64,000 nt of DNA from Candidatus Bathyarchaeota archaeon (lineage in GTDB: Archaea > Thermoproteota > Bathyarchaeia > 40CM-2-53-6): contig CAVTBR010000001.1 in NCBI GenBank assembly GCA_963733055.1, positions 256,001 through 320,000 on the forward strand. The letters run 5' to 3'. A program made the position numbers and the translations under genes. The notes beneath the pieces are model-generated. The model did no database searches. It was given only the letters and a program-made list of their open reading frames with translations, and was not told the DNA's origin. Shown piece after piece: positions 38,627-59,529 of this stretch. Positions within the stretch are counted from its first letter, which is position 1; every line of letters starts with the position of its first letter.

Positions 38627-38672
38627 AATCGGATCTGCAGCCGCAATTCGAACAACGAGTCACCAATTGTGC

Positions 38673-42283: not shown

Positions 42284-42351
42284 ATCTTGGCAAGATTCCA
42301 GACAAGCTTTTATATAAAGGTCCTAGTATAGGACAAGGCGGTGGAAGCGCG

Positions 42352-42693: not shown

Positions 42694-42919
42694 ACTCAGA
42701 GGCACACCAAGCTTACCAAACACTCTCCGCCAGGCTCGCGGTAAGGCACTCTACTTCTTCTGACTCTGTGAAGGTTCTAACCCGAGACTTGGCCGGTGAG
42801 TTCGAGAAACTTTGTGCACTTCTAGCCATATCCGAGAGGGAAGCTGCGGAGCTAGCTATGCGAACCTGGGTCAAAGGAAACTGGGATTAAGCACAGAAGA
42901 AACTTGACCTCTACGCTGA

Positions 42920-43353: not shown

Positions 43354-43354
43354 C

Positions 43355-43639: not shown

Positions 43640-43699
43640 CCACCACGCTTCACTATCGATAGCGAGAACATAAGCGTTCGATGCTGACATATCGAGTGC

Positions 43700-44275: not shown

Positions 44276-44327
44276 GTGCAGTCTCCGTGTCTGATCATTA
44301 GATTTGACCAAGCTGACATGTCTCACG

Positions 44328-44834
44328 TTATCCAGACTGTTTCCATCTTTGGGTTGCTATTCGTATGATGAGGTCTCTGCAAGTGACTAGGTCACTCCAT
44401 GCTTCCTCATCAGAGACCCAGAGCTGTACTGGCTCGAGCATTCTGGTTGAATGGGCTTGTTCGTAGTACGCTCGGTCTATGCGCTGTGCGAGGTGGGCTC
44501 CAAGGTTTCCATGCTCTCTTGCAGCATCGATTCGTTTTGCGAAATCCTCATCGATCAGGTGGTTCGTCTTTGCCCACTCGAAATTTTCCTGCCACACAGT
44601 ATTCTTTACGAGCTCGTGTGAAGCTGAGCGATCGGTGATCGTTGGCGTAGTTTTCGCTGTATGAAGTAGCGTCTCCATGGACGCTCTAGTGCATAAGCAG
44701 CAGGCGAGATTGGCGTGAGCATAGAAGCACCGGACCGCCTCCCCGAAGAGGTCTGCAGCTTTCGATAGTACGAACCACTTATCGACCACGTTCTTGTTCG
44801 TGGTCAGGGAAAACCAGAGTTCACTGTAAGCCAA
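44328..44834 (-). CDS. DUF4145 (HEPN-like) protein
   Basis: EAVRCF...ACCLCTRASME...AREHGNLGAH. Confidence 0.75.
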   Translation of the reverse strand: MAYSELWFSLTTNKNVVDKWFVLSKAADLFGEAVRCFYAHANLACCLCTRASMETLLHTAKTTPTITDRSASHELVKNTVWQENFEWAKTNHLIDEDFAKRIDAAREHGNLGAHLAQRIDRAYYEQAHSTRMLEPVQLWVSDEEAWSDLVTCRDLIIRIATQRWKQSG

Positions 44835-44864
44835 TTGTGTCTACCCGCTTCTTAGTGAGGTGGT

Positions 44865-45599
44865 CTATTTGATTATTTGACCAGTTTTGTTTGACCATAT
44901 CAATAGGTCAAGATCGTCCATCGGAATGGAGCTGTCCCTAGCCAATTCCATCATCCTCTTCTCATATTCAAGATACTGAGACTTTCTCAGAGCTTGCTCG
45001 TAAATCTTAGAAACGTAGTTAAACTTCTTCAACTCCCTCTGGATATGTCGGTCCAAGAGCGCGAGCCCGCAACCCAATCCAATTCCAACATTTCTGAGAA
45101 ACTGACTTGCGACTTTCCAACCAACACCACTCTTCTGAGATGCGAGATATTCTCTAGCGCCTAGGATCTCCCAATCATTGGTTCTCTTGAATTTGCCTTC
45201 GAGAACATACTTGATTCTCATGGTTTCTTGATTGGCGAATTTGTCACGCCAACTTACGATGTGTATGGACCTATTCCAGAGCGCATAATGGTGCTGTCTT
45301 AGGTAAGTTTGGATTTGCTCATTTGTACCGTCAAAGAGCAACCTACTGCTCTCAAGTTCGGCAACCAAAGGGAGCGTTCTCGCAGCATCCTGCCTTGCTA
45401 GCAAAATGCCATAGCAAAGTTCGGCAAAAACGCCTTCATCGCTTTTGCCCCATCCGGTTCTCAATTCTTTAAGCCGCTCTTGAATCAAAACGCGCTTTGT
45501 TTGATATGCTTGCTGAAGGTCTTGCACTGTCATTGGGTTGGCGCGTTGTACGATTATCGGTTTAACGTAAACTGATTCAGCCGACATATCACAGGCCAC
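44865..45599 (-). CDS. 8-oxoguanine N-glycosylase/DNA lyase-like protein (OGG2 type, HhH)
   Basis: FAELCYGIL, GVGWKVASQFLRNVG, ALLDRHI, YLEYE, LDLLIW, terminal Lys. Confidence 0.82.
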   Translation of the reverse strand: MACDMSAESVYVKPIIVQRANPMTVQDLQQAYQTKRVLIQERLKELRTGWGKSDEGVFAELCYGILLARQDAARTLPLVAELESSRLLFDGTNEQIQTYLRQHHYALWNRSIHIVSWRDKFANQETMRIKYVLEGKFKRTNDWEILGAREYLASQKSGVGWKVASQFLRNVGIGLGCGLALLDRHIQRELKKFNYVSKIYEQALRKSQYLEYEKRMMELARDSSIPMDDLDLLIWSNKTGQIIK

Positions 45600-45640
45600 T
45601 CTCGACAGTTTCAGCCACGAACCAACTTAGTCACGAAGAG

Positions 45641-46276
45641 CTAAGCGACGGAGTTCCCGTTCCTATTCAGAGCATCATTCAACGCTTCGAAAACAGGTAT
45701 CGAAGCTGCAACTATCCGTTGGGCTGTGGGTCGATCAACATCGACTTGGTGGAGCGCTCGATTGCAAATCCTTGTTATGCTCACAATTGGTTCGACCAAG
45801 TTATCTGAAAGTATCCCTCTGCTAGCAAGGATCTTTACAATCTCTCCAAGTGGATATTTCACGGGCTCGTCAGGTCCAGATAGCTGTCTAAGGACCTGTT
45901 CAAGTCCCATACGGATCGATGCCAAAGCTAGATTCGGATCTTCATCAATCACCCTGTAAGCCAGTGCAACTTGGTTCGGAATGAGCGGCGCGATCGGTCT
46001 AGAAGTAACGATCCGTACAGTTTGCCTTTCCAGTGCTTCAACTTCTTCACGAATCTCCAATCCCCCTCCCCCGGGGAGCGATATCTTCGTCACAAAAGGG
46101 AAAAGCCAGGGAGATACGAAAATCAGAAAGAACACAACACTCGTAGTGTCAATTTGTCCCCATGACGCAGCGTGAAAGACAATCATTAACCCTGCCGCTA
46201 GAGAAATTAACAGTGAGGTCGCGTAGTATCTTCTTCCTCTAAACAATTTGCTCGACAATTGCTGCGATGACACCAC
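45641..46276 (-). CDS. 2-TM protein with C-terminal DUF4145/HEPN-like domain
   Basis: Two N-terminal TM helices; ALASIRMGLEQVL...RICNRALH. Confidence 0.65.
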   Translation of the reverse strand: MVSSQQLSSKLFRGRRYYATSLLISLAAGLMIVFHAASWGQIDTTSVVFFLIFVSPWLFPFVTKISLPGGGGLEIREEVEALERQTVRIVTSRPIAPLIPNQVALAYRVIDEDPNLALASIRMGLEQVLRQLSGPDEPVKYPLGEIVKILASRGILSDNLVEPIVSITRICNRALHQVDVDRPTAQRIVAASIPVFEALNDALNRNGNSVA

Positions 46277-46329
46277 GTGCGTATTCTATCCATCGCATTA
46301 ACTTGAATCTTTTCGGAGTTACCAGCGCG

Positions 46330-47771
46330 CTAATAGAACTGCCAGAACCGACGGAAGCCTTCGGCATCACCGATGCTGAGCATCTGCATGAGAGATCTCA
46401 GTTCACTTCCATCTACGAGCTGCACACTCCTCTTGTTACATTCTTCGCGCGCGTGACTCGTGTCTATCTTCGTCGTTACCATAGCTGCCCGCACTTTACC
46501 GGAATTGCCGTCGAAGAGCTCTTGGCTCAAGTATTCAGCGCATTCTTTGATGCTAGAGATTTCTTTATCCTGGGGAAGATCCATGGTACATGAAACGACG
46601 TAAATAGTGCTGTACTGCGGAGCATATGCAATCAGGTCTGCGCTACCTTTAGTGAACTTTGACTCTTTGATAATCAGTTTCTCGAACTCGTCGAGCTTGA
46701 CGACGCAAAAGACACCGGAGGAGGAGAGAAGCCATGATACCGCTCGTTCGAATACCCTGCTAGGCCGTGAAACCTTCTCGGGGGAGAGTAATTGTTTGCT
46801 CAAATCCTCGACTGAACAAAATCGGTCTAGAACCAATCTTAGTGGAAATTCAACCCCGAATACCCTGTTCGGATGCTTGAGGAGAAGACCTGAAAGTTCT
46901 CTGCCTTCTTCATCGAGATTTAGTCCACCAAGAAGCAAGCGCGCATCTATGTGGTCATGGATCGCCCAATGTTGCAGCTTAGTTGAGAGAGTAACTCGAT
47001 TAATAGAATTACCAAGTTTTTCAACTCCAATATTTTTCAAGCAGAATTCATATTCCTCCTTCGGCGGTCCGCTTCGCGCACCCCACCCCTCGCCAGACAA
47101 CAGATGAACGACCAGTCTAGCGCTGTTGAAGCGGTCATGGAAAGATATCGTTGATGAAAAAGTTGATCCGTCAAATGAAACAGCGTCAATCCGAGCATAA
47201 ACTGGCAACGATACGAAAATACTGTAACCAGCATTCATGCTTTGATCTAGGTGAACCTGAAGGCAGGAGCTCACCGCCTGATAGATGTCTCTATACCCAA
47301 GCGTTCTGACGTCGAAAGAGGCTCGGTCCAACGTCTCTTGGTCGGGACCGGCGTCTCCACGATTTATCGCTCCGCCATATTGCGCCATTCCTTTTCAATG
47401 AAGTATGTCGAGTATCTGGACAGACCACAATTCAACGATGCGATATCGGGCACCGGTTTTATGGCGACAGGCACTTCTTGAAGCTCAACTTTACCCGATG
47501 CGAAGGCTTGTTGGAAATCCTTCCAATCGTCCTCCACTGTCCCGCTCGCATAGTATGTTCGAAAGCACCGAGTAACAATAGGCTTGGTTCGTCTTACGGT
47601 TGTAGACCCGTCGCAGAGGAAGCGAATCGACGATGCGTAGTTTACCCACTCATCACCTTGTCGAAAACATGCAAATCGCACGTCAACTCGGCTAAAGAAA
47701 TGAGACAGTTCTTCAAGAAGTTGTCCGAACTTAACAGCAGACATACTAACGCTTAGGATCAGCGCAGACAA
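46330..47771 (-). CDS. Restriction-endonuclease-like protein (C-terminal Mrr-like PD-(D/E)xK fold), split near 47380
   Basis: Overlapping ORFs 47364-47771 and 46330-47388; FERAVSWLL...ADLIAY...VVSCT...LVDGSEL. Confidence 0.55.
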
Positions 47772-47862
47772 AGAGTTTCCTAAATTTGCAACGCTCGTCT
47801 CCGATTGAGGAACTAGTCGAAGGCGACAATGCTTTGTCCCACAAAATGTCTAGTTTTAGAGT

Positions 47863-48972
47863 GTGTACCACCAATCATGTTTCGAGACCACGTTGGTAGA
47901 CATACGGGCTTCGGAGCGAAGAACCATGCTGACGCTTGCACCAGTCTTCAACGTTGATTTTGAACAACCTCAGTTGGAGCTTTCAGAGAACCTGTGCTTA
48001 CGCATTTTGACAAATGAGGAAGTTCAGGTCATTCGTGAGAATGAGAACAGATTCAGAGCGCTTCCTCTCAACGCGCTTACGAAACTGAAATTTGCTATAG
48101 CCTGTATCACTGAAGTATCCTCCCCATGGGATCTCCTAACCCAGAGCAGGGCAACCAAACGGATTAACCTCGTAATTGCCGCTTTCCGACTCTGGAGCGG
48201 TGTCAATCTCCGATCACCTCTCAGATTTCAAAGGATAGAAGTAAGCAACGTTTTGTACAATCTACCAATCGGCGATCGAGAGAGAGAATCACTCTTAAAG
48301 AAGATTAATCCATTTTCTATCACTAAATTGAGCTCTCCTGAACCCTTTGCAGTAAGCGAAGTAAATCGATTCTCAAAGGCGGATGCAGAAGCGTTCGCTC
48401 AGCTTTTCAGAAGTATGGAGAAAGACAATCAAGGCAATTTGAAAGTGGCTTTTCAACGGCTGAAAATGTTCTCAGAGGAAGAATGGCCTGAGAAGATCAT
48501 TGATGCAATGATAGCCTTCGAAGCCCTTTACGTCAAGAGAGGAGATAAACGGTCCAAGTCTGAACAGATCGCCTCAGGAGCTGCAAAGCTCATAGGGCAA
48601 ACCCCTGCTGTGGCCGAATTGCTTCACGCTGCATACAAGCTAAGGAATAGAATCGTGCATGGAGAAGATGTGACCTCAGACCACTGGAATGAACTCACTA
48701 GACTGGCAATCATGAACGACCCTGATTTGAAATCCTTGATATCTGAACCGACTACGGACAGTCACGAAGAACTTCCACCAAACGCCCCCGTCGAAGCGAT
48801 AGGCAACTGTTTGTGTGAATCGATTAGCGCTAAACTAACACATGAAATCGACAACGAGGATAGACACGCAAGAGAGGGGGCCGGAGCGGAGCAGGGCTCA
48901 ACGTCACAGCCGCAACATGACCAAAGAACCGAGCTTTACCATAGCGACGATTATGATGGTTATCAGGATTAA
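47863..48972 (+). CDS. ApeA-like HEPN protein
   Basis: IIDAMIAFEALY...AYKLRNRIVHG; C-terminal tail may be degenerate. Confidence 0.75.
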   Translation: MYHQSCFETTLVDIRASERRTMLTLAPVFNVDFEQPQLELSENLCLRILTNEEVQVIRENENRFRALPLNALTKLKFAIACITEVSSPWDLLTQSRATKRINLVIAAFRLWSGVNLRSPLRFQRIEVSNVLYNLPIGDRERESLLKKINPFSITKLSSPEPFAVSEVNRFSKADAEAFAQLFRSMEKDNQGNLKVAFQRLKMFSEEEWPEKIIDAMIAFEALYVKRGDKRSKSEQIASGAAKLIGQTPAVAELLHAAYKLRNRIVHGEDVTSDHWNELTRLAIMNDPDLKSLISEPTTDSHEELPPNAPVEAIGNCLCESISAKLTHEIDNEDRHAREGAGAEQGSTSQPQHDQRTELYHSDDYDGYQD

Positions 48973-49060
48973 CAAATGGAGCAATCGAAGAAAACTTCAA
49001 AAAAACGGCCCAAAATGAGGAGAAATCCGTAGAAAATGGTCTATCAATCCCATGAGATGA

Positions 49061-49085
49061 TGGGGCTGGTGGGATTTGCACCCGC
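49061..49085 (-). other. tRNA 3'-end-like fragment (T-arm plus acceptor strand)
   Basis: Minus strand GCGGG-TGCAAAT-CCCAC-CAGCCCC-A. Confidence 0.55.
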
Positions 49086-49437
49086 CGGTGTCCGCTAGGT
49101 TCAGCCTGCAGACTCACCGGTCTATCTTCCGAGTCAGCTTTGCACATGTAACTGACACCGATCGGTATAGTATACGAACCTGGAACATAAGCCTCTGGGA
49201 TAACATCGCCAACATGAATCGTCTTGAGGTGATGGAAGGCAAATTACTCTCATTATAAGTCGATTCAGCAGCGCAGAATTCCGGACTACGATGCCATACT
49301 TAGGAGCTAGGATAGCTCCCTTGATCTCCTATGCCTCGCCGGCAGGGTCGCACATGGGCGCAGTTGTGGAGACAACTGAAATCGGATTCAACGTACACGA
49401 CCCTGATCTCCTGTTCAATGTATCCTCTGGAATCAAT

Positions 49438-49824
49438 CTAATTGAAACACACATCTACTCGTGCCTTGGATAAGAGGAATTCTTGAAGTCTTTCCGTGCT
49501 GCTGAAACTTCTCTTGACCCCGACTTCGGATCTCGATAGTAGGTATACATGTGATTTGTCTAAAGCAACGTTTTCGTCCTCCCCTTGTAAGCTGACCAGA
49601 GCCAGTATATCGTATAATTTCCGCTCCTCGGGAGCTGGCCATTGATCATTCACGGAAGTCTTCACCTGTATAGTCCGTAAACTGAGTCCTTTAGCTGCTA
49701 TGAGATCGTTTCCACTATCCTTGAGAGTGAACGATGCTTGGACTCCATACTGAAGCAGTCGCATAACCACAAGCAATTCTCCTATTGTTCCCGTCTTTAG
49801 ATTCTCATCCAACGGATTTGCCAT
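49438..49824 (-). CDS. Small PD-(D/E)xK endonuclease
   Basis: GTIGE...GNDLIA...IQVKTS. Confidence 0.8.
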   Translation of the reverse strand: MANPLDENLKTGTIGELLVVMRLLQYGVQASFTLKDSGNDLIAAKGLSLRTIQVKTSVNDQWPAPEERKLYDILALVSLQGEDENVALDKSHVYLLSRSEVGVKRSFSSTERLQEFLLSKARVDVCFN

Positions 49825-49976
49825 GACGATGCGTAACCTCGGTCGGAGATTTACGTACTACCTAAATTCTCTCAGGCCAACAAAATGCGAGTAGTTTCGC
49901 TGGTTTTTTCAGGTAATAATAGGAGAGGAGCGCATTTCGAGCAACAGGCGCACAATTTACTCAACCGGTGAGGTAG

Positions 49977-51200
49977 CTATTTTGATGATTTGAGATACTC
50001 AAGCGCGTCGCTTATTGCATCCAATTCTTTCTCACGCAAACCGCCGTATTCGAATATGGCTCTCACGGACGAGATCGAATACTTTTCCAATGCGAACTTC
50101 CACAACACGCTCAACATCAAATCAGCAAGAAGTTTGCTGAAGATTAAGTCATGGTGGCCGATCAACTCCAACTTACCTTCATGAACCATGGAATTACGTT
50201 TGAGCAATGTCACGTCTACTTCGGATTCAAAGGCTGGAGATTTGTTCACGAAATATTTGCGAACTCTGTCTTTGAGGACCTTCTCTGGAGTTATCTGCCT
50301 CAAGGTAGCAATAGTCTCAACTACGATCCAATACTTCAGAAAAGCAAAGGCAGCATCGGTTTCAGTCACAGCAGAGCTGTACACATCGAGAGATTCAAGT
50401 AACAGACTCGCAAGGTTGCTATCCTCGAGTGGATAATACATCTCATCGAGAACTTTCTTGAATCTTGCCACATCAAGCAGCTTTGTTCCTGTCAGGTAGG
50501 GATCTGGAATATCAACAACTGTCCAATCGATCAAGCCTTTCTTTTCGAATGCGAATATACTTCTTGAAGGTCTGAAATTCGTTAGAGGTGTGTTGGACAA
50601 TGGATGGATTGTTCCTCCGACGCATTCATAGTTCACGAGTGCAAAGAATCTACTTACGAGATTAGACAACTCTCGAAACGCAAAGGAGGCATCTCGAGCC
50701 TGAATCTTAGAGCTAACCCAGACCAAATTCGCCAAAGAAGGAACGTAACCTGATGCCAACTGAAAATACTCTTTGATCCGATCCTCTGCGATGGTCGACA
50801 GGTCTGAATGTGTCTCAAAGTCCAGCTTTTGCGCACGGACATCGCAGGTCGGGCCGAATTGCTTCACGAAATCAGCCGGTAGCGGAGTCGGGGAGATTAC
50901 GATCAGCTCTTTCATGGGTAATGAGTGCAGGCTCGCGAGTTCGTTCTCTATCTCTCTGACTAGTGATGGAATCGAGTCAACGCCGTTTCCTTTGAATTTG
51001 CTGATTGCTTTTTCCACGACGGCAAGAGTCTGGTTGCTTCTCAATTGCCAAACTCGCTTGCGAACGTTGTTGCCGTCGGACAATTGTAGACTGGCAGCTA
51101 TGATCTCACAGCAGTGCTGAATTTCATGTATCCGATTTGGTCGGCCCAAGAATTTCAGAGAGTGATTTGCTAGTGCAAGGAACGAATCATCTGACTGCAT
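49977..51200 (-). CDS. ApeA-like HEPN protein
   Basis: AFLKYWIVVETI...KRNSMVHEG. Confidence 0.72.
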   Translation of the reverse strand: MQSDDSFLALANHSLKFLGRPNRIHEIQHCCEIIAASLQLSDGNNVRKRVWQLRSNQTLAVVEKAISKFKGNGVDSIPSLVREIENELASLHSLPMKELIVISPTPLPADFVKQFGPTCDVRAQKLDFETHSDLSTIAEDRIKEYFQLASGYVPSLANLVWVSSKIQARDASFAFRELSNLVSRFFALVNYECVGGTIHPLSNTPLTNFRPSRSIFAFEKKGLIDWTVVDIPDPYLTGTKLLDVARFKKVLDEMYYPLEDSNLASLLLESLDVYSSAVTETDAAFAFLKYWIVVETIATLRQITPEKVLKDRVRKYFVNKSPAFESEVDVTLLKRNSMVHEGKLELIGHHDLIFSKLLADLMLSVLWKFALEKYSISSVRAIFEYGGLREKELDAISDALEYLKSSK

Positions 51201-51379
51201 AATAGGATGACCGTCGTAGCCGTGTTTTCAAGCCTTTGCTGACGTTCGTCTGTTCCTGATCATCGAGAGCCTACCTTTATTTCAGCAGCTAGAACAGAGT
51301 ATTGACAAGGAATCGAGGGTAGATTCTGTTGAGTAATCTAACTTCTGTGATTTTTCAATACGCAAAACAGGTGCGGCGG

Positions 51380-51413
51380 TAACGAAATGCGTATATAAAG
51401 TGCTATTGCGTTA
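51380..51413 (+). promoter_or_regulatory. TATA box (TATATAAA 51392-51399) flanked by inverted repeat TAACGAAAT...ATTGCGTTA
   Basis: 8/9 matching arms bracketing the TATA box, upstream of the HTH array. Confidence 0.6.
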
Positions 51414-51432
51414 TAGAGTAGAGCTGAATTGT

Positions 51433-51789
51433 ATGGCTGACGAAAACGAAGAACTCGGACTGCTGAGGGAAATCAACGAGAATTTGAAAGTGATTAGAAA
51501 GCTCACTGAGATACAGCTTCACGGACCAATCAAGGACGAACTGACAAAGTTCGCCTCGTCAGCAGAGCGGAGAAAGCTTTGGATGCTGTGTGACGGAACT
51601 ACTACCACCATAGAGATGTCGAGAAGAATCGGCGTTAGTCCGAGAGCCGTTCAGTATTTCGTCCAGGATGGACTGAAAGCCGGTTTCCTCAGAGTCGACA
51701 GACGGGGTTATCCAAGTCGAGCAATAGACTGGACTCCGCCAGAGTGGGAACGAGCTCAAGGCGAAACAAGGGAGAGCAGAAATGAGTGA
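51433..51789 (+). CDS. Small helix + winged-HTH protein 1
   Basis: LLREINENLKVIRKL helix; LWMLCDG...EMSRRIGVSPRAVQYF...GFL. Confidence 0.8.
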   Translation: MADENEELGLLREINENLKVIRKLTEIQLHGPIKDELTKFASSAERRKLWMLCDGTTTTIEMSRRIGVSPRAVQYFVQDGLKAGFLRVDRRGYPSRAIDWTPPEWERAQGETRESRNE

Positions 51790-52087
51790 GTCAGAATTCA
51801 AGCACTTGACAAAGCAGAATGACACGATCATTACACTGCTGGGACATTTGGCGTTCAAAGCGCAAGATATCAAGGACATTGTGACTAAGAAGAAGCAGAA
51901 CCCCGACAACTATGTCAAAGGATACAATGCCTGTGACGGACAACATACAGTATCTCAGATTGCTCAGATAGTGGATGTCAAATCTGGCACGCTCACGCCC
52001 ATTCTCCAGGAGTGGGAAGAATTGGGGATTATTCGTGAAATCGAAAAGCCTGGAGGCAGGTTCTACAAGAAGCTGTTTCCTATTTAG
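51782..52087 (+). CDS. Small helix + winged-HTH protein 2
   Basis: QNDTIITLLGHL; GYNACDG...QIAQIVDVKSGTLTPILQEWEELGII. Confidence 0.8.
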   Translation: MSESEFKHLTKQNDTIITLLGHLAFKAQDIKDIVTKKKQNPDNYVKGYNACDGQHTVSQIAQIVDVKSGTLTPILQEWEELGIIREIEKPGGRFYKKLFPI

Positions 52088-52095
52088 GTGAAAAC

Positions 52096-52332
52096 ATGGA
52101 CGAAAAACAGTTCACAGAACTCATGGGCAGGCTCGGTGTCCTAAGTAAACTCCTCGCTTGGAATATTCTCCAAGGCAAGGAAAGTCTAACTCAGCGGGCT
52201 CTGGCACTCTCCTCAGCCGGTTTGGAAAGGAAGGAGATTGCATGGTTACTGGGTCAAGATCCAGATCTGATTAGTCAGACACTATACCAGGCCAAGCAGG
52301 CAAAGGGAAGCAAGAAGGAGAGAGTCAAATGA
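52096..52332 (+). CDS. Small helix + HTH protein 3
   Basis: ELMGRLGVLSKLL; LSSAGLERKEIAWLLGQDPDLISQTL; AGGTGA SD. Confidence 0.8.
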   Translation: MDEKQFTELMGRLGVLSKLLAWNILQGKESLTQRALALSSAGLERKEIAWLLGQDPDLISQTLYQAKQAKGSKKERVK

Positions 52333-52598
52333 GCGATCAAGAACAATTCGCCAGACTGATTGAGCTGATTGAGGCGATCCTGAGAACGAGAATCACGGAG
52401 CTGTTGGACAAGGAGCTAGATGATCCCAAGAAGAAGAAACTATACGAACTTACTGGCAGAAAGAAAATAGTCGAGCTTAGCAAACTCACTGATCTCTCAA
52501 CAGGAACTATCTCGGGCCTCTGGCAGAGATGGTATTCGATGGGCATCCTGAAGAAACAAGGCAAGCTCTACGTCAAGTTCTTCGAGGAGGAGATCTAA
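52329..52598 (+). CDS. Small helix + winged-HTH protein 4
   Basis: RLIELIEAIL; KLYELTG...ELSKLTDLSTGTISGLWQRWYSMGIL; ATGA overlap. Confidence 0.8.
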   Translation: MSDQEQFARLIELIEAILRTRITELLDKELDDPKKKKLYELTGRKKIVELSKLTDLSTGTISGLWQRWYSMGILKKQGKLYVKFFEEEI

Positions 52599-52685
52599 GA
52601 CGACTGAAGAACCGCTGAGAAGAACTACAAGGAATAGAGAGACGTGCGTCTCTTAGTGTCTCCGGCAGAAGAAGAGGTGATATCG

Positions 52686-52850
52686 ATGCCAAAGAAGCCA
52701 AAAACAGTTGAAGAGCACCTCGAAATCATGGAGAATCTGCTCGCTGGTGTTATTCTAAAGCGTGAACCGAACGTGAAAAAGCTAGCCAAGATTATGGGTG
52801 TCTCCAGTGACAAGCTTACTGAATTGTATCCTACTTCCAGGAAGAAGTGA
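52686..52850 (+). CDS. Small helix + HTH protein 5 (54 aa)
   Basis: EHLEIMENLLAGVIL; NVKKLAKIMGVSSDKLTEL; GAGGTGA SD before ATG 52686. Confidence 0.72.
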   Translation: MPKKPKTVEEHLEIMENLLAGVILKREPNVKKLAKIMGVSSDKLTELYPTSRKK

Positions 52851-52875
52851 GAGAAAACCGAAGAGTGATTGACGG

Positions 52876-53577
52876 ATGTTGGATCGTGCTTCACTCATCA
52901 GCAATTTGAGAGCGTTCTGTGCTGGATCGCCCAAGAAAATAGCAATTTTGAAAGCCGTCCGAAAGCGAACATATTACAAGGAAGTTGCGAAAAATGTTCA
53001 CGCTAGAGAGGACTACTGTTCTAGCGTTCTTAATGGCTTACGGGCAAATGAGTTAGTCGAAGGAAAACGCGGTTTCTATCAGCAGACACCGTTGATGAAA
53101 ACCATCAACATAGATTCTGAGTTAAAGAAGCAAAGTGGAAGAGTACGAGTCGCACAAACAAAGCAAACTCCTACAGAGAAAATTAGAGTACTTGACCTAG
53201 AAAAGGCGCTTGATCAGCTAGACGTCGACTCGGTAATCAAGAGTGACTGCTTTCCTCTGCGAAAACCCTACAGAACTCATGTAGGGGAAGCGTATCTAAC
53301 TGTAGAGAATTTCATCAAACAAGAGTTGCGATTGCCCGATTCCCTCGTGGGTACAGATCTCGTTTCCGAGGCTGTCAAGAAGGGACTCTTCGATAGGTCG
53401 GTCAATTCTGAGAAAGAAGGTCTAGCTCTTCTCTTCAGAGGAGCCGTGCTTTGGCTTAGAAACCCAGCTCATCATAGGAAGGGAGACATGCCTAGAGAGG
53501 ATGCCCTTAAGATGATACTGTTTGCAGACTACCTGTTGAAGTTAGTTAGAAGGCAAAAAGAACTGAACAAACTCTAA
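52876..53577 (+). CDS. wHTH fused to TIGR02391/Ymh-like HEPN domain
   Basis: N-terminal wHTH; LVGTDLVSEA...EKEGLALLFRGAVLWLRNPAHH...DALKMILFADYLL. Confidence 0.8.
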   Translation: MLDRASLISNLRAFCAGSPKKIAILKAVRKRTYYKEVAKNVHAREDYCSSVLNGLRANELVEGKRGFYQQTPLMKTINIDSELKKQSGRVRVAQTKQTPTEKIRVLDLEKALDQLDVDSVIKSDCFPLRKPYRTHVGEAYLTVENFIKQELRLPDSLVGTDLVSEAVKKGLFDRSVNSEKEGLALLFRGAVLWLRNPAHHRKGDMPREDALKMILFADYLLKLVRRQKELNKL

Positions 53578-53715
53578 ATGATATTCGCAGTTTGACCATG
53601 CGCTCAACTCATGTCTATTTGGTCGATATAACAATCGTTCGCCGATATTGCAGATTTTTCGTGATCAAAACAGACATCAAGATAAGATTGATCGGAGCAT
53701 TTCTTTCGGAGACAA

Positions 53716-56238
53716 TTGGACGTTCAGGAGTGCCTAGAAGCCATCGTAGAGAGCATACGTAAGAAGAAGATGTCTATCTGGGTTGGAGCTGGAATATCTC
53801 TACCGTCTCTTCCTTTGGGAAATGAATTGAAGTTTTGCATACTTGAGGAAGTATGCGCCCATCCCTCACTTCGGAAATATGGAGATCGATTGCAACGAGG
53901 GCAGGACATAGCGAGAGATGTGGAGAAGCTTCCGCTCGAATGGATAATTCAAATCACATCCACCCTGGATTCGTCGATCCTTGCTTGCGTCGCCAACGTG
54001 TTTAGGGGCGGCTCTTCGAACAAGAATCATTTCCTGATAGCTCAGCTAATTGCGCAAGGTTTTGTCTCGCAGGTCATGACAACAAACTTTGACCTCCTGA
54101 TCGATAGAGTTCTCGAGAACGAGCTAGGATTACGAAGAGGATCCACTTTCAACCTACTGTATCGTGAGTCTGAATTTGAAAATATCAAAGCGATCAAAAA
54201 CCGACCCACCCTCTACAAGATTCATGGCAGTGCAGATGACGAATCTAGCATAAGAGTCACTTTGAACAATGTGGCGAGCAGGGGACTTTCGGACCGCAGA
54301 GCCGAAGCCTTGGAACACTTTCTCAGCTCGGGAGACATTCTTGTTCTTGGCTACAGCGTGCGAGATGACTTTGACATCAATCCGATTCTGTCGAAAATAC
54401 CATCGAAAGGGCGTATTTTCTACGTTAGACACGTAAGGGAAGGATTCAGCATAAGGAAGCTGCCAAAAGCATTCTCTAGGTTTCCAGGAACAACTATTCA
54501 TTTTGACACGGCTAAGCTGATTGACTATCTGTCGAAGTCAATTCTAGACCAAGATCCGAAGCAACTCTCGGTGAAGATGGGATTAGAATCTGGGAACTGG
54601 AGGAAAACGATCGAGGCATGGGCGGAAAGGCTCCAATTGTCTAAGAGATGCCTTATCATGGGATCGATTCTTCTTGAGATACGGCGGAATGATTCATATG
54701 AATTATTCAGAAGGGCGAGCAAAGCATGTGTCGTCGATCATAACCTTCCCGGATTAGCGACCGCCCTCTATAGTATGGGCATGATAGAGCAAGAAAGAGG
54801 CAGGTACAACAAAGCGCTGACATTTTTCGATCAGACGCTGCGGCTTGACCGTAGACTCAACGATCAACATGGGATAGCGGTTACCTTACGTTTGATGGGG
54901 AAAATCCAACTAGACGTCGGCAATTTTGCCAAGGCTGCAAGGCTATTCCTTCGAGGTGCAAATATTCTTTACGAGCTTGGGGATTTGTATGAATTTGCCA
55001 CTGCTGTCCAGGACTTGGCTGTTTTGGAGATGGACAATGAAAATTATCCTCGAGCGACAGCGTTCTTCGGTCAGGCAAAGGAAACCTTCGAGAAGTTAGG
55101 CAACGTGTCAGGAGCAGCGGGAGTGTCGCAAAATTTGGCGATAATTGAGGAGCGAAAAGGAAACCTGAAGGAGGCTTCAAGACTATGTCGAAAAGCCTTA
55201 GAGACCGCATCAAGCCTCTCAGATGAACCTGAAATCGGCGCTGCACTTCATCATCTCGGCACTATTGAGCAGAGTCTAGGAAATTATGCGACGGCCAAAC
55301 GATTCTTCGATCGGGCTTTGAAGATTCGACTAAGCCTGAAAGACTTGGCAGGATTGGCAAGTACAACCAGTGAACTGGCCAAACTCGAAGTCCTGTTAGG
55401 ACATTATGGTAGAGGTCGAATTCTGTACAACAGAGCGAAGAAGTTCTTCTGCAAGCTGGATCACTCATATGGAATCGCCAATTGCCTTCAAGAGCTGGCA
55501 ATAGTAGATGTGTACGAGGGGAAATATCAGAGGGCCGTCCAGTTGACGAATGAGAGCCTTGAGATTAGGAGGCAGGGTCCAAACCAATCAGCTGTCGCAG
55601 CATTGCTGGACCAATTGGGATCAATTGAGTTGCTGCAACGGAAATACGTTGAGGCGAAGACACATTGCAAAAAGGCGCTGCAAATATTTCGCAAACTGGA
55701 CGATCAAGCTGGAATTGCAGGAGCTCTTCATGACCTCGCCAGTGTCTACGAAGAGAGTGGTGACCTCCCTAGAGCCATAGCGATGTATAATCACAGCCTG
55801 AAAATTAAGCGGAGAATCAAAGATCGTCATGGAATGGCCAAAACTTTTCATCAGCTAGGTTTAATCGAGTATCGCAGAAAACACTACGACAGGGCCAGGA
55901 AATATTGTGACGATAGTCTACGAATCAAACGGAAGTTAGGCGACAAACACGGAATCGGTGCGACGCTGCTTCAGCTTGGTGCAGTCGAACATGCGAACAA
56001 CAATCTTGTTCAAGCAGAGCAGTTCTATACTGAGGCTCTGGCGCTTTTCCGCGCCATCGGAAGCCAAACAGCCGAATCTTCCGTTCTAACAAATCTTGGA
56101 ATACTCGAAGTGACTAATCAGAATTACGATGCGGCAGGGGAATTTTTCAAAGAAGCTCTGACAATAGAACGCAAGCCGGGCAATCGCCATAATGCTGAAC
56201 AGCTGCTTATGACACTACAGGGTCTCTCTAGACTCTAA
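53716..56238 (+). CDS. SIR2-like (NADase-type) domain plus long TPR array
   Basis: WVGAGIS, TTNFD, KIHGS, VLGYS..D.DI; then about 12 TPR-like 40-aa repeats. Confidence 0.88.
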   Translation: MDVQECLEAIVESIRKKKMSIWVGAGISLPSLPLGNELKFCILEEVCAHPSLRKYGDRLQRGQDIARDVEKLPLEWIIQITSTLDSSILACVANVFRGGSSNKNHFLIAQLIAQGFVSQVMTTNFDLLIDRVLENELGLRRGSTFNLLYRESEFENIKAIKNRPTLYKIHGSADDESSIRVTLNNVASRGLSDRRAEALEHFLSSGDILVLGYSVRDDFDINPILSKIPSKGRIFYVRHVREGFSIRKLPKAFSRFPGTTIHFDTAKLIDYLSKSILDQDPKQLSVKMGLESGNWRKTIEAWAERLQLSKRCLIMGSILLEIRRNDSYELFRRASKACVVDHNLPGLATALYSMGMIEQERGRYNKALTFFDQTLRLDRRLNDQHGIAVTLRLMGKIQLDVGNFAKAARLFLRGANILYELGDLYEFATAVQDLAVLEMDNENYPRATAFFGQAKETFEKLGNVSGAAGVSQNLAIIEERKGNLKEASRLCRKALETASSLSDEPEIGAALHHLGTIEQSLGNYATAKRFFDRALKIRLSLKDLAGLASTTSELAKLEVLLGHYGRGRILYNRAKKFFCKLDHSYGIANCLQELAIVDVYEGKYQRAVQLTNESLEIRRQGPNQSAVAALLDQLGSIELLQRKYVEAKTHCKKALQIFRKLDDQAGIAGALHDLASVYEESGDLPRAIAMYNHSLKIKRRIKDRHGMAKTFHQLGLIEYRRKHYDRARKYCDDSLRIKRKLGDKHGIGATLLQLGAVEHANNNLVQAEQFYTEALALFRAIGSQTAESSVLTNLGILEVTNQNYDAAGEFFKEALTIERKPGNRHNAEQLLMTLQGLSRL

Positions 56239-56250
56239 AGGGACGAAAAT

Positions 56251-59184
56251 TTGATGGAGTCTGTGTTGTTACTTGCAGGCTTGTTGCTCGCCAGATTACT
56301 TCTCGAGAAGCTTCCAGAAAGCGTTGCATCTGATGCAATTATAGATTCGGGGAAGGCGCTTGCCCATCGAATAGGTAGAAAGAATCTTGAAGAGCTCATT
56401 GTGGAATCGATCAAAGAAGCCGCTGAACAGTCTGCAAGAGAGTACGGCGATATCAGACAAGATATTTTCAAGAGTGCGTTGAAAGCGCTTGAGTGTCCTT
56501 CTGCAAAAGAGATTATCCGGAGAAGAAGCGATGCACTGCTTCGAGCAAAATTCACCTCCGAGGAATTCAAGCAGCTCTCTCAAGAGTTAGCAGCCACGAT
56601 CTATGTCAAGTCAGGTATTTCCAAAGAAGACATTGAACGCGTTCTGAGAGAATCTCTACGTTTGTTTCATGACCACTTACTTGCGAAGATCGCTGAAGAC
56701 CAGAGGCTTACGAATTTTCTTGGGCTTAAGTTAGGAATTCAAAATGCTCTTGCACTAGAGTCCCTCACGAGTGCTTTTAGAGCCTCCAGGAAAGATACTC
56801 AAAGTGCATTTCAACCGTTCACTATTCTACCGTTATCGGATTTGCGGAAACTGGACACGGTTCTCCATTATAACCCACCCCAATCAAGATTGCATGGATA
56901 CGTGCCGAGGGAAGAGATTGACTTCGATCCATCTGGAAGAAGGATCATTATTCTAGGAACTCCAGGATCGGGCAAGACAACCGCTCTGCTGAAAATCCTT
57001 GAAAGAGCAAAAAGCGGAACCATAGCGGTAATACACAGATCCTTTTCCGCCGATGATATCCTCGGACTACTCAACGCTATCTCGATTGGTGAGTCAATTA
57101 TTCTTGTTTGGGACGACCTGCATTGGGTCGGCGAACCGTCTCTCGTTCCGACAACTATTTGTAAGATCCTGGAAGTCACTTCTAACCCTACCTTAATACT
57201 GGCTGCAAGATCAAACGAATTCGAGTCATTACGTCGAAAGGTATCGGAACACTTCTGGTCTATGTTTGAAAAACATCAGCTCGTGGACCTCGACACCGAT
57301 CAGACAAGGAGGCTAGTAGACATTTGCAAACAGGAATTCGATGTGACGATGGATGAGGAACTTGAGAAACAGCTAATCTCCGTAGTCAAAGAAGCCGATC
57401 CTACTCCTCTCTATATTGTGTCGGCTATTCTAGCCTTGAAAGGGAAATCGCTTGAAGCGACCGACATCCACAGAATTCCTGCAAGCGCTAGGGACATTTG
57501 GGCAGGATTATTCTCCTCACTCGATTCCGACAACAAGAATGTCTTGAGGTCTCTGAAATTACTTGACGAAGCACAGCTTCCTCCTTTGCATTGGCTTGCC
57601 TCAGCAATATACGAATGCGTCTTTCGTGGAGACGAAACGAAATTCCAATCAGCCTTGGACCAACTTAGTAGCATGGGATGGGTTCGATCTCTTGGCTCAC
57701 GTATTCAGTGTCATGACCTCCAACTCGAAGCGGTTCAGATCGACGATCTTTCCTACGACAATTTGCGTTTTCTCTCATCTAGTCTCAACCTAACCCCTGA
57801 AGGCAAATTCACTGTTCTTCATCACTTTGGCATAGTGCTTGACCGAAGAGGTAGGTATAACGACGCAAGAGCGCTGCTCGAAGAAAGCCTTGCAATTGAA
57901 CGTGATGTTGGGAACAATTTGTCAGAGGCTTTAACGTTGCACCAATTGGGAAAGATCGAACAGGCGATAGGCAACTACGACGTCGCCCAGAAACTCTATG
58001 AACAAAGTCTCGAGATCAAACGGAAACTAAGAAATGAAGCTAGCATACCTTCAACGTTGCATCAGCTTGGCGTTTTAGCCTATCTTAAGGGCGACTATGA
58101 TGCTGCCAAGCGATTGTACGGGGAGGCAGAGAGTGCCTTTCGCAAGTTTGATGATCAATCCGGATTAGCTGGGGTACTGCATCAACTTGCACTCATAGAA
58201 AAGGAGAGGGGAAACCTTGATGAATCAGCAAAACTCGCCGAACAAAGTTTGAGGATTAGTCAAACACTAGGAGATCAAGAAGCAGTGCCTCAAGATGTGG
58301 TGCTTCTTGCTCAACTAGAAGATTCCAGAGGTAATCGTGATACAGCGAAGCGACTGTACGCAGAAGCTGAAAACGCTTTTCGAGAACTAGGCGATCAAGT
58401 GGGGCTAGCAATCGTGTTACACCAACTCAGTATGATGCTTCAAGACGAAGGCAACTTGGATGAATCTCTTAGATTGTGTAATGAGAGCTTGAGAATTGAG
58501 CAAAAGATCGGGCATCCATTAGGAATAGCTGGAAGCTTGAATCAGTTAGGTAGAATTCAATTTCAAAAAGGCAACTATGATGAGGCCCAGAGATTCTATG
58601 AGGCCAGCTTGGAAATTACTGGTAAACTTGGAAATCAATCGGAAAGCGCTCAGACACTGCATTCCCTGGGCGTAATCGAATACATGAGGGGCAACTACGA
58701 TAAAGCCACGAAACTGTACAATCAGGCCCTTGAAGTCTACGGTTTACTTGGGATGAAAGCAGAGATTGCCTCAGTTCTGTATCAGTTTGGCAACATGGCA
58801 GTGTCAAAGGAAAATTACGATGACGCAAAGACGCTTTATGAACAATGCCTAGAAATCGATCGGGAGGTTGAGAACCCATTAGGCATAGCGAGAACTTTAG
58901 TGGCACTGGGTAGAGTGGATGCTCTGAAGGATAACTTTGAGAATGCAAGGAAACTTTTCAATGAAAGCCTGGCGATTGCTCGCAAGCTTGGAAACATATC
59001 AGAGGAAGCGACGGCGAATGCTCAACTCGGTAGCCTTGCGGAGGCGGAGGGTGATGTGAAAAGTGCTGTCAAGCTGTGGTCACAAGCATTACAAATTTTC
59101 GAGCAGATAGGCGAGAGAGAAAAAGCGGACAATCTAAGGCCCGAGCTCAAGCGTCTAATGGACAGGTTACGACTTGGACAGTAA
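56251..59184 (+). CDS. P-loop NTPase (STAND-like) plus TPR array
   Basis: YVPRE, Walker A GTPGSGKT, Walker B LVWDD, ILAAR sensor, TPLYI (GxP-like), HDL (MHD-like), then TPR repeats. Confidence 0.85.
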   Translation: MMESVLLLAGLLLARLLLEKLPESVASDAIIDSGKALAHRIGRKNLEELIVESIKEAAEQSAREYGDIRQDIFKSALKALECPSAKEIIRRRSDALLRAKFTSEEFKQLSQELAATIYVKSGISKEDIERVLRESLRLFHDHLLAKIAEDQRLTNFLGLKLGIQNALALESLTSAFRASRKDTQSAFQPFTILPLSDLRKLDTVLHYNPPQSRLHGYVPREEIDFDPSGRRIIILGTPGSGKTTALLKILERAKSGTIAVIHRSFSADDILGLLNAISIGESIILVWDDLHWVGEPSLVPTTICKILEVTSNPTLILAARSNEFESLRRKVSEHFWSMFEKHQLVDLDTDQTRRLVDICKQEFDVTMDEELEKQLISVVKEADPTPLYIVSAILALKGKSLEATDIHRIPASARDIWAGLFSSLDSDNKNVLRSLKLLDEAQLPPLHWLASAIYECVFRGDETKFQSALDQLSSMGWVRSLGSRIQCHDLQLEAVQIDDLSYDNLRFLSSSLNLTPEGKFTVLHHFGIVLDRRGRYNDARALLEESLAIERDVGNNLSEALTLHQLGKIEQAIGNYDVAQKLYEQSLEIKRKLRNEASIPSTLHQLGVLAYLKGDYDAAKRLYGEAESAFRKFDDQSGLAGVLHQLALIEKERGNLDESAKLAEQSLRISQTLGDQEAVPQDVVLLAQLEDSRGNRDTAKRLYAEAENAFRELGDQVGLAIVLHQLSMMLQDEGNLDESLRLCNESLRIEQKIGHPLGIAGSLNQLGRIQFQKGNYDEAQRFYEASLEITGKLGNQSESAQTLHSLGVIEYMRGNYDKATKLYNQALEVYGLLGMKAEIASVLYQFGNMAVSKENYDDAKTLYEQCLEIDREVENPLGIARTLVALGRVDALKDNFENARKLFNESLAIARKLGNISEEATANAQLGSLAEAEGDVKSAVKLWSQALQIFEQIGEREKADNLRPELKRLMDRLRLGQ

Positions 59185-59407
59185 ACGTTCCAAATGATGC
59201 TCCGTCAGTCCACGTGATTTGGGTACTAAATATTAGCTGACCTTGGTAATAGAGTGATATCCAGCCTGCCATGCTTGTTGCGAGCCTCTGTGATATTCAT
59301 CGGCTCTTGTGATTTTGAACTTCACCCACCACCTTCTTCTCACATCTCAGGAATGCGTTTCGGCTCAAACGGTAGGCAAGTTTTCAATTAATCAATCTGC
59401 GGAATCG

Positions 59408-59529
59408 TGGCGGGCCCGCGGGGATTCGAACCCCGGACCCCAGGCTTCTCCCGCTTCCTGAAAGCGTTTAGAGGGCCTGTGCTTTAGACGCTCAAACCAG
59501 AAGCACTATCCAGACTGAGCTACGGGCCC
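59408..59529 (-). tRNA. tRNA-Arg(UCU) with two 22-nt BHB-type introns (59484-59505 and 59446-59467), CCA encoded
   Basis: Spliced form GGGCCCG TA GCTC AGTCTGGATA GAGC A CAGGC CCTCTAA GCCTG GGGTC CGGGG TTCGAAT CCCCG CGGGCCC G CCA; A20 and G73 Arg identity elements. Confidence 0.9.

What the first reader, a model, noticed from the sequence alone, without database searches (positions are those of the whole stretch)
53716..59184. Split Avs-like pair: SIR2-TPR without NTPase next to NTPase-TPR without a recognisable effector
Seen: two genes 12 nt apart, both ending in similar 40-aa TPR arrays. The first has SIR2 motifs but no Walker A; the second has Walker A/B and STAND-like motifs with only a helical N-terminal region. 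Established: Avs/NLR-like proteins join effector, STAND and TPR in one chain, and SIR2 effectors deplete NAD+. Inference: a two-component sensor/executor pair analogous to paired NLRs, in an archaeon.
Basis: partly seen in the sequence, partly recalled or inferred. Interest (0 to 1): 0.75.

Follow-up and report, generated by a model that had tools for sequence, protein, structure and literature searches.

The report
SIR2-TPR and STAND-TPR defence gene tandem
Two back-to-back genes in a variable island of a soil archaeon encode a likely NAD-destroying enzyme and a switch-like ATPase, each with its own repeat sensor, but relatives of each gene occur alone, so they look more like two neighbouring immune genes than one split system.

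Summary
Gene A (53716-56238) is a SIR2_2 domain with the catalytic Asn and His, no P-loop, and twelve exact 40-residue TPRs. Gene B (56251-59184), 12 nt downstream, is an all-helical 215-residue N-domain with no family match, a true STAND NTPase (model Z 17.2 to Apaf-1 over NBD, helical and winged-helix domains) and eleven 40-residue TPRs.

Both genes lie in about 23 kb of extra, low-GC DNA beside an intron-bearing tRNA. That DNA is missing at this site in two same-genus genomes.

The split-Avs reading is only partly supported.
- Neither gene was found in 60 related genomes, nor clearly in 400 genomes sampled from the phylum.
- A SIR2-TPR homolog stands alone in another archaeal MAG.
- B-family genes stand alone at four haloarchaeal plasmid loci.
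- No fused SIR2-STAND form appears among 169 stored homologs.
- The two TPR arrays are no more alike than unrelated arrays of this type.
- Only one relative probably carries both genes on one contig.

Best reading (0.5): a co-transcribed tandem of two autonomous sensors, one DSR-like (SIR2-TPR) and one NLR-like (helical domain-STAND-TPR). A coupled sensor/executor pair remains possible (0.3). Both genes are new members of known kinds.

The parts
53716..56238 (+). Gene A: SIR2-TPR protein, 840 aa (P0001)
   Evidence: ORF. Pfam SIR2_2 and TPR_12. PADLOC ThsA and Dsr1 SIR2 parts.
53716..54420 (+). A residues 1-235: SIR2_2 catalytic domain (GAGIS 24, TTNFD 122, KIHGS 168)
   Evidence: PDB sequence hits 7uxt_B at E 1e-4 and ThsA 6lhx at E 0.034.
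54421..54750 (+). A residues 236-345: linker with no family match; the least conserved part of A (65, 55, 51, 32% identity to homologs)
54751..56190 (+). A residues 346-825: twelve 40-residue TPR_12-type repeats, followed by a 15-residue tail
56239..56250 (+). 12-nt spacer between the stop of A and the TTG of B; too short to hold its own promoter
   Evidence: No terminator-like site between the genes.
56251..59184 (+). Gene B: helical N-domain, STAND NTPase and TPR protein, 977 aa (P0002)
56251..56895 (+). B residues 1-215: eight-helix N-domain. The first ~20 residues are hydrophobic (Kyte-Doolittle 19-residue mean 1.84). No family match.
   Evidence: Atlas lead to NNH2 at 0.87 was not confirmed.
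56896..57801 (+). B residues 216-517: STAND module (NBD, helical domain, winged helix). Walker A at 236-243, Walker B at 284-289, RS at 320, DPTPLY at 383, CHDLQLE at 486.
   Evidence: Model pLDDT above 90 here. VIA-align Z 17.2 to Apaf-1 over 296 residues. Motifs.
57802..59181 (+). B residues 518-977: eleven 40-residue TPR repeats plus a capping helix
59411..59529 (-). tRNA gene with two long insertions; marks the right edge of the variable island
   Evidence: Rfam RF00005, 41 bits, E 3.2e-7. Conserved next to LeuRS in G415 and G418.
36578..59410 (.). About 22.8 kb of extra DNA compared with two same-genus genomes; the part from 44 to 60 kb has GC 0.46-0.49. Holds an orphan TerL, repair genes, Hypoth_Ymh, A and B.

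Best explanation
A and B are two self-contained anti-virus sensor proteins carried side by side, and probably co-transcribed, in a horizontally acquired island next to a tRNA gene.

A is a DSR-like single-chain system. Its TPR solenoid holds the SIR2 domain inactive until it binds a viral protein, after which the SIR2 domain hydrolyses NAD+ and stops the infected cell.

B is an NLR/Avs-like single-chain system. Its TPR array binds a trigger, the STAND module exchanges nucleotide and oligomerises, and the clustered N-terminal helical domains act as the effector, possibly on the membrane through the hydrophobic first helix.

Shown here: the domain identities, the intact catalytic and NTPase motifs, the STAND fold, the island context, and that each architecture occurs alone elsewhere. 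Inferred: the anti-virus role, the NADase activity, the triggers, and the effector role of B's N-domain.
For: - A has SIR2_2 above the Pfam cut-off with invariant N124 and H170.
- The SIR2_2+TPR fusion is a recurrent stand-alone architecture. Several Atlas clusters of 51-356 members, in Bacteria and Archaea, carry it.
- The G803 homolog is monocistronic, and its genome has no match to the B profile.
- B has the three-domain STAND fold. Z is 15-17 to Apaf-1, NRC1, NLRP9, MalT and an archaeal STAND-TPR over about 290 residues, whereas AAA+ proteins align over only about 193 residues at Z <= 14.2.
- An N-region of about 200 residues before the STAND module is the family norm: 118 of 149 homologs have >= 150 residues, median 197.
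- B-family genes stand alone at 4 of 4 haloarchaeal plasmid loci, with a transposase or integrase directly upstream in 3 of them.
- No fused or mixed forms occur among 169 stored homologs.
- The island is missing at this site in same-genus G415 and G418.
- Neither gene was found in 60 relatives (B) or in 400 other genomes of the phylum (B had one marginal hit at E 4.5e-4).
- From the literature: STAND proteins with non-enzymatic helical N-domains are listed in passages of bioRxiv 2022.07.19.500537. That SIR2 plus repeat-sensor proteins (DSR2) work without an NTPase is recalled; only the reference titles were seen.
Against: - The 12-nt spacing on one strand with no terminator-like site is typical of functionally linked operon genes.
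- A and B homologs are equally rare and fall into parallel identity tiers: A at 73, 60, 60, 44 and 42%; B at 74, 66-69, 62, 47 and 43%.
- B has no recognisable enzymatic effector, and A has no switch.
- The stand-alone B-family loci are only 24-30% identical to B, so they say little about this particular clade.
- Contig-length matching is indirect, and P0007 and P0008 are truncated within the TPR array.
- Nothing here shows anti-virus activity.
Confidence: 0.5

Rival explanations
1. This is a true two-component system. B is the nucleotide-gated sensor or scaffold, and A is its trans-acting executor. On trigger binding B oligomerises and recruits or releases A, for example through TPR-TPR stacking or B's N-domain, and this switches on NAD+ hydrolysis.
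For: - The 12-nt gap and likely co-transcription.
- Complementary domain sets.
- Both genes are absent together from all relatives searched.
- Parallel identity tiers, and one probable shared contig for P0004 and P0007.
- Trans-encoded effectors of STAND proteins are known in principle: the EAD concept (passages of PMC7159879) and Avs2-trypsin-MBL (listing abstract).
Against: - Adjacency is not conserved. G803 has A alone. Four of four plasmid loci have a B-family gene alone. No other contig-length matches were found.
- The two proteins share no adaptor domain other than generic TPR.
- The A and B TPR arrays are no closer than unrelated arrays.
- No fused ancestor was seen.
Confidence: 0.3
2. 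B is a MalT/AfsR-like STAND-TPR signalling or transcription regulator rather than an immune receptor, and A is an unrelated NAD-dependent enzyme such as a deacylase that uses its TPR array as a protein-binding scaffold.
For: - MalT is among the top structural matches, Z 16.4.
- NCBIfam gives partial TPR matches to AfsR and NsdA regulators.
Against: - No DNA-binding domain was found in B.
- All NCBIfam hits cover only the TPR part and lie far below cut-off, except NsdA_fam_reg in B (80.4 bits against a cut-off of 75), which is also a TPR-only match.
- The SIR2_2 clade is the defence-associated one: PADLOC matches ThsA, Dsr1 and Aga_SIR2.
- The genes sit in strain-specific island DNA beside a tRNA, with mobile-element neighbours in relatives.
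Confidence: 0.08
3. The genes are decaying cargo of a defunct mobile element and have no current function.
For: - The island is mosaic, with an orphan TerL and no detectable att repeat.
- Relatives show truncated or rearranged copies: P0007, P0008, the P0009 tail, P0015, and a 60-residue remnant in G551.
Against: - Both ORFs are intact over 840 and 977 codons, with all catalytic and NTPase motifs and perfect repeat register.
- Homologs at 60-75% identity keep the domains.
Confidence: 0.05

Closest known systems
DSR1/DSR2-type defence-associated sirtuins (single chain: N-terminal SIR2, C-terminal helical-repeat sensor)
   Same: A has an N-terminal SIR2_2 domain with the catalytic Asn and His, followed by a long helical-repeat region and no NTPase. 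The PADLOC Dsr1 model matches the SIR2 part at E 3.7e-7. DSR2 chains are weak PDB sequence hits at E 0.4.
   Different: The sensor is a regular 12 x 40-residue TPR_12 array, not the DSR C-terminal domain. Only the SIR2 part matches the models. Activity and trigger are untested.
Avs5 / AVAST type 5 (SIR2-STAND-sensor in one chain, e.g. EfAvs5, PDB 9jap)
   Same: The same three functions, SIR2, STAND NTPase and C-terminal sensor, are present in the locus. B's NBD aligns to EfAvs5 at Z 13.8 over 192 residues. The EfAvs5 architecture was taken from the listing abstract of PMC11897194.
   Different: SIR2 and STAND are on separate proteins, each with its own TPR array. No PADLOC Avs model matches at E <= 0.01. 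B is structurally closer to Apaf-1 and plant NB-ARC proteins (Z 16-17) than to EfAvs5. No fused relatives were found.
NB-ARC / AP-ATPase-type STAND proteins with an N-terminal helical domain (plant CC-NLRs; bacterial NACHT proteins with NNH domains; Pfam nSTAND_NTPase5)
   Same: B has the same layout: helical N-domain, then NBD-HD-WHD, then a repeat sensor. Foldseek's top hits are NRC2, CED-4, Apaf-1 and ZAR1. Weak nSTAND5 hits recur in B and in 10 of 45 scanned homologs. B has a hydrophobic first helix.
   Different: The nSTAND5 score of 27.3 bits is below the 34-bit cut-off. The NNH2 HMM gives no hit. Any likeness of the first helix to the plant CC alpha-1 helix is my own recalled analogy and was not tested.
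Trans-effector STAND systems coupled by effector-associated domains (Kaur et al. 2020, 2021)
   Same: An NTPase gene and an effector gene are adjacent (passages of PMC7159879 and PMC8195603).
   Different: Those systems share a small adaptor domain between the NTPase N-terminus and the effector. A and B share only TPR repeats.

Membership tests
SIR2_2 (PF13289) defence-type sirtuins | Profile match above the curated cut-off | tested here: met
   45.7 bits against a cut-off of 24.5, E 8.9e-12, residues 120-230 of A.
SIR2_2 (PF13289) defence-type sirtuins | Catalytic Asn (TTNxD) and His (xHGS), plus the Rossmann glycine motif | tested here: met
   TTNFD at 122, KIHGS at 168 and GAGIS at 24. N124 and H170 are invariant in 14 sequences. 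The assignment of these residues as catalytic is recalled.
SIR2_2 (PF13289) defence-type sirtuins | NAD+ hydrolase activity | not testable with these tools
   Needs an enzyme assay.
DSR1/DSR2 | Full-length match to the family models, including the C-terminal sensor | tested here: not met
   PADLOC Dsr1 matches only profile positions 14-209 of 1227. No Dsr2 model is listed.
STAND NTPases | Walker A and Walker B | tested here: met
   GTPGSGKT at 236 and ILVWDD at 284 in B; none in A.
STAND NTPases | Tripartite NBD, helical domain and winged-helix fold, as distinct from plain AAA+ | tested here: met
   Model pLDDT 83.6 overall and above 90 in this part. Z 17.2 with rmsd 3.8 over 296 residues to Apaf-1, and Z 15-17 to NRC1, NLRP9, MalT, NLRP3, NLRC4, NOD2 and 6mfv. 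AAA+ and RFC align over only about 193 residues at Z <= 14.2.
STAND NTPases | C-terminal repeat sensor | tested here: met
   Eleven 40-residue TPRs.
Pfam nSTAND_NTPase5 (PF25199) | Score above the gathering cut-off | tested here: not met
   27.3 bits against 34. Ten of 45 scanned homologs also score below the cut-off.
Avs (antiviral STAND), including Avs5 | Effector, STAND and sensor in one polypeptide | tested here: not met
   SIR2 and STAND lie on separate ORFs. No protein carries both HMM matches: of 169 stored proteins, 12 match SIR2, 155 match STAND and none matches both.
Avs (antiviral STAND), including Avs5 | Match to curated Avs profiles | tested here: not met
   No Avs or AVAST model is listed for A or B at E <= 0.01 in PADLOC-DB 2.0.0. 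Newer Avs families are not in that library.
Avs (antiviral STAND), including Avs5 | Protection against viruses | not testable with these tools
   Needs infection assays.
Two-gene (paired) STAND system | Conserved adjacency of the two gene families across genomes | tested here: not met
   A stands alone in G803. The B family stands alone at 4 of 4 plasmid loci. Only one probable shared contig was found, for P0004 and P0007. The G456 locus is cut by the contig end and is uninformative.
Two-gene (paired) STAND system | Shared adaptor (EAD-like) domain or a direct interaction | tested here: inconclusive
   BLASTP of A against B aligns only TPR to TPR. Physical binding is not settled by the tools used here.

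The most novel reading that the evidence does not exclude
A and B form an archaeal split NLR. A nucleotide-gated STAND-TPR scaffold (B) controls, in trans, a SIR2-TPR NADase (A) that carries its own sensor array, so that firing needs two TPR readers or hetero-oligomeric TPR stacking. This would be a paired sensor/executor logic not yet described for prokaryotic STAND systems.
Probability: 0.28. Interest if true: 0.7.

Novelty: new member of a known kind. Interest (0 to 1): 0.4.

Why it matters
If the two proteins are autonomous, the locus adds two uncharacterised archaeal members to known classes of abortive-infection sensors. One is a SIR2 enzyme with a repeat sensor. The other is a STAND protein with a non-enzymatic helical N-domain. 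It also shows that SIR2_2-TPR is a widespread architecture that has not been studied.

B's clade is very rare: only 2 representatives among 1.84 billion cluster representatives cover its N-domain. Its N-domain is a candidate new effector.

If the two are coupled, this would be a prokaryotic analogue of paired NLRs and a natural case of a STAND switch acting on a trans effector that has its own sensor. That could be tested directly with two genes and an NAD+ read-out.

Tried and rejected
- Complex prediction of B 1-520 with A 1-345: 'no answer', ipSAE 0.00 in two runs, controls not run (after queue refusals). This is evidence neither way.
- Metagenome scans with B as a single protein and with profile A1 found no relative. 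Viral-contig scans with A1 and with A's SIR2 part also found none.
- The genome-contig scan with A's SIR2 part gave one locus, cut by its contig end 381 residues into the gene.
- The first fold of B 1-520, with 5 sequences, was unusable at pLDDT 44.
- A PDB sequence search with profile A1 gave only P-loop noise, best E 0.048.
- The Atlas lead that B's N-domain resembles NNH2 (0.87) or NNH5 was not confirmed. The NNH2 HMM has no match in the genome at E <= 10, and Pfam at E <= 10 gives nothing above cut-off.
- No att-like repeat of the tRNA region occurs in the window; the longest match is 12 nt.
- Sequencing runs: no RNA holder is listed. The one holder (X1) carries only 8 short near-identical contigs of the same organism, and none bridges A to B.
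- The idea of a short motif shared between A's C-terminal tail and B's N-terminus, as in amyloid signalling, was dropped. The resemblance is a few leucines, and A's tail is not conserved in P0009-P0011.
- Recent duplication of the TPR arrays was rejected. A against B is 30-35% identical, the same as A against the distant A homolog P0010 at 33%.
- Hypervariable sensor arrays were rejected. B's TPR part is its most conserved part: 80% and 75% identity, against 70% and 56% for the N-domain.
- Literature: in the search for 'SIR2-TPR', 'TPR-SIR2', 'SIR2-STAND' and 'Avs5', the 15 papers listed of 49 held no 'SIR2-TPR' or 'TPR-SIR2'. The other 34 were not seen.
Full report
**Observation**

The window holds two + strand ORFs at exactly the stated coordinates: A at 53716-56238 (840 aa) and B at 56251-59184 (977 aa). 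They are separated by 12 nt, TAA-agggacgaaaa-TTG.

A carries Pfam SIR2_2 at E 8.9e-12, above the cut-off, and a strong TPR_12 signal. Its SIR2 part also matches the PADLOC ThsA, Dsr1 and Aga_SIR2 models. A has GAGIS, TTNFD and KIHGS, and no Walker A or B pattern. N124 and H170 are invariant across 14 aligned family members.

B has Walker A (GTPGSGKT, 236) and Walker B (ILVWDD, 284). It gives only a sub-threshold nSTAND_NTPase5 hit of 27.3 bits against a cut-off of 34. Residues 1-215 match no Pfam family above cut-off even at E <= 10.

Both proteins end in arrays with an exact 40-residue period. A has twelve repeats (346-825) and B has eleven (518-957), all in perfect register.

**What B is**

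A first AlphaFold model from 5 sequences was useless, at pLDDT 44. A HMMER search of 1.84 billion cluster representatives with B 1-520 gave 185 hits at E <= 1e-3. Aligning 106 of these and other stored homologs (A2) raised the model to pLDDT 83.6, with values above 90 across residues 220-500.

VIA-align places residues ~194-520 on Apaf-1 (Z 17.2, rmsd 3.8, 296 residues), NRC1 NB-ARC (16.8), NLRP9, MalT, NRC2, NLRP3, NLRC4, NOD2 and an archaeal STAND-TPR protein (6mfv, 15.2). AAA+ and RFC proteins align over only about 193 residues at Z <= 14.2, and EfAvs5 (9jap) at Z 13.8 over 192 residues (Foldseek list). B is therefore a genuine STAND NTPase with NBD, helical and winged-helix domains. The family motifs RS, DxTPxY and HDxQLEA sit where NB-ARC proteins have the sensor-1, GLPL and MHD motifs. 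That correspondence is my recalled knowledge.

The N-domain is modelled as eight helices at pLDDT 55-84. Its first ~20 residues are hydrophobic, with a 19-residue Kyte-Doolittle mean of 1.84. An ESM-Atlas lead to NACHT N-terminal helical domains (NNH2, 0.87) was not borne out by the NNH2 HMM.

In the wider family an N-region of about 200 residues is the rule: 118 of 149 homologs have >= 150 residues before the STAND module, median 197. Only P0005 and the fragment P0015 among the 150 listed representatives cover B's first 60 residues. Of the 45 homologs I scanned with Pfam (of 150 listed), most are NTPase+TPR proteins with no N-terminal family. Two carry DUF4062 and none carries SIR2.

**Context**

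GC is 0.46-0.49 from 44 to 60 kb, against 0.49-0.54 over most of the rest of the window.

ARAGORN found no tRNA. Rfam, however, finds a tRNA at 59411-59529 on the minus strand (41 bits, E 3.2e-7), with two long insertions, in the D-arm region and in the anticodon loop.

In same-genus genomes G415 and G418 the LeuRS gene is followed by this tRNA (90-94% identity). It is followed within 1.5-7.5 kb by the homolog of the window's peptidase M32 gene (35.0-36.5 kb) and then by genes matching 33.8-31.2 kb. Of 23 window proteins queried, only LeuRS matched; the 20 that lie between 38.6 and 59.2 kb did not.

The window's ~36.6-59.4 kb is thus about 22.8 kb of extra DNA abutting the tRNA. It contains glyoxalase, 3-methyladenine glycosylase, CopD, an orphan large terminase (38673-40106, Terminase_6N E 5e-19), DUF4145, Ogg, several ORFs with no family, a Hypoth_Ymh gene 139 nt upstream of A, and A and B. 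No att-like repeat was found.

A and B are each single-copy in the genome.

**Distribution and linkage**

- B (profile A1) was found in 0 of 60 related genomes: 22 same genus, 14 others of the same family, 24 same order.
- In a 400-genome sample of the phylum, B gave one marginal hit at E 4.5e-4 and A's SIR2 part gave none.
- Word-based searches of 5.8 billion proteins found few relatives. For B these were P0004 (74%), P0005 (62%) and P0006 (43%), plus the fragments P0168 (66%), P0169 (69%) and P0015 (46%). For A they were P0007 (73%), P0008 and P0009 (60%), P0010 (44%), P0011 (42%) and three distant hits.
- The identity tiers run in parallel. Adjacency is not shown, and P0007 stops in mid-repeat.
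The contigs of the full-length A homologs P0009, P0010, P0165 and P0011 (8.3-15.5 kb) carry no detectable B. The contigs of P0005, P0006 and P0015 (10.8-21.9 kb) carry no full A. This inference is indirect.
- Directly readable loci speak against obligate pairing. In MAG G803 a 604-aa SIR2_2+TPR_12 homolog (38%) is flanked by opposite-strand ORFs, and the genome has no A1 match. In G456 the homolog (47%) runs off its contig just as the TPR array begins, so that locus is uninformative. G551 keeps only a 60-residue remnant, near an integrase.
- tblastn against plasmids found B-family genes (24-30% identity, query residues 124-497 or less) in 11 haloarchaeal records. The 4 distinct loci I viewed have no SIR2 or TPR neighbour, and 3 have a transposase or integrase directly upstream. 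A's SIR2 part had no plasmid match.
- With local HMMs, of 169 stored proteins 12 match SIR2, 155 match STAND and none matches both. No fused form was seen that would make this a 'split'.
- The Atlas shows SIR2_2+TPR as a recurrent architecture, with clusters of 51-356 members in Bacteria and Archaea (a lead, with no alignments).

**The TPR arrays**

A against B is 30% identical over 437 residues. That is the same as A against the TPR array of the distant A homolog P0010 (33%) and as other cross-comparisons (30-38%). The likeness therefore reflects the TPR_12 consensus, not a special relation.

Between orthologs the arrays are not hypervariable. B's TPR part is 80% and 75% identical to P0004 and P0005, more than its STAND module (77%, 66%) or its N-domain (70%, 56%). 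A's least conserved part is the 236-345 linker.

**Mechanism**

I rank first (0.5) a co-transcribed tandem of two autonomous sensors.

A would work like DSR-type sirtuins: trigger binding by the repeat solenoid releases NAD+ hydrolysis. The DSR2 mechanism is recalled; I saw only its reference titles in PMC12803255.

B would work like NLR/Avs proteins. Trigger binding by the TPR array drives STAND oligomerisation, and the clustered N-domains execute, possibly at the membrane. STAND proteins with helical, non-enzymatic N-domains are listed in passages of bioRxiv 2022.07.19.500537.

The 12-nt spacing, the complementarity, the co-rarity and the parallel tiers support it. Trans effectors of STAND systems exist, as in the EAD principle (passages of PMC7159879 and PMC8195603) and Avs2-trypsin-MBL (listing abstract). 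But A and B share no adaptor beyond TPR, and the adjacency is not conserved.

Minor rivals are a MalT/AfsR-like regulator (0.08) and decaying cargo (0.05).

**Comparison and novelty**

A meets the tested SIR2_2 criteria but not full-length DSR1 membership. B meets the STAND criteria by motif and by fold, but falls below the nSTAND5 cut-off and matches no PADLOC Avs model. That library dates from 2023, and later Avs families ('at least 90', listing abstract) are not in it.

The locus does not meet the single-chain Avs/Avs5 definition. The EfAvs5 architecture was taken from the listing abstract of PMC11897194.

Each gene is a new member of a known kind. The tandem would be a new variant only if coupling is shown.

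Noticed in passing
window 59411-59529 (-): A tRNA gene with two long insertions (29 and 27 nt where the model has 4 and 5), probably introns in the D-arm region and the anticodon loop. ARAGORN missed it. It is conserved next to LeuRS in two same-genus genomes and marks the island edge.
   Followed up: partly
window 38673-40106 (-): An orphan large terminase gene (Terminase_6N, E 5e-19) inside the ~23 kb extra segment. Its neighbours had no Pfam family, so this looks like a provirus remnant rather than a complete virus.
   Followed up: partly
window 52876-53577 (+), 52329-52598 (+), 44328-44834 (-): A Hypoth_Ymh (PF09509) gene lies 139 nt upstream of A on the same strand. A small ORF has a weak Csa3-like match (PADLOC 5.9e-5), and there is a DUF4145 gene. 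These may be further defence-island cargo or regulators.
   Followed up: no
L011 (NZ_CP038633.1) 4986-9343 and L014 (NZ_LN831303.1) 3772-8343: In two Halobacterium species the B-family STAND-TPR gene sits directly downstream of a large transposase gene in a conserved block. This suggests the STAND gene travels as transposon cargo.
   Followed up: no
L010 (G551:C3) 7791-8114 and 5538-6938: A 60-residue remnant of the A-type SIR2 N-terminus (54% identity) lies about 0.9 kb downstream of a phage-integrase-family gene in another archaeal MAG.
   Followed up: partly
proteins P0009, P0010, P0011: P0009 diverges from A into an unrelated basic tail at about residue 795, just before the point where B would begin. 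The C-terminal capping helix of the A homologs P0010 and P0011 resembles the cap of B and P0006 more than A's own tail, which hints at exchange of TPR ends between the two families.
   Followed up: no
L004 / G456:C158 contig end: The contig breaks about 40 residues into the TPR array of the SIR2-TPR homolog. P0007 and P0008 also stop in mid-array. Repeat arrays probably break assemblies, which biases any co-occurrence count made from metagenome contigs.
   Followed up: no
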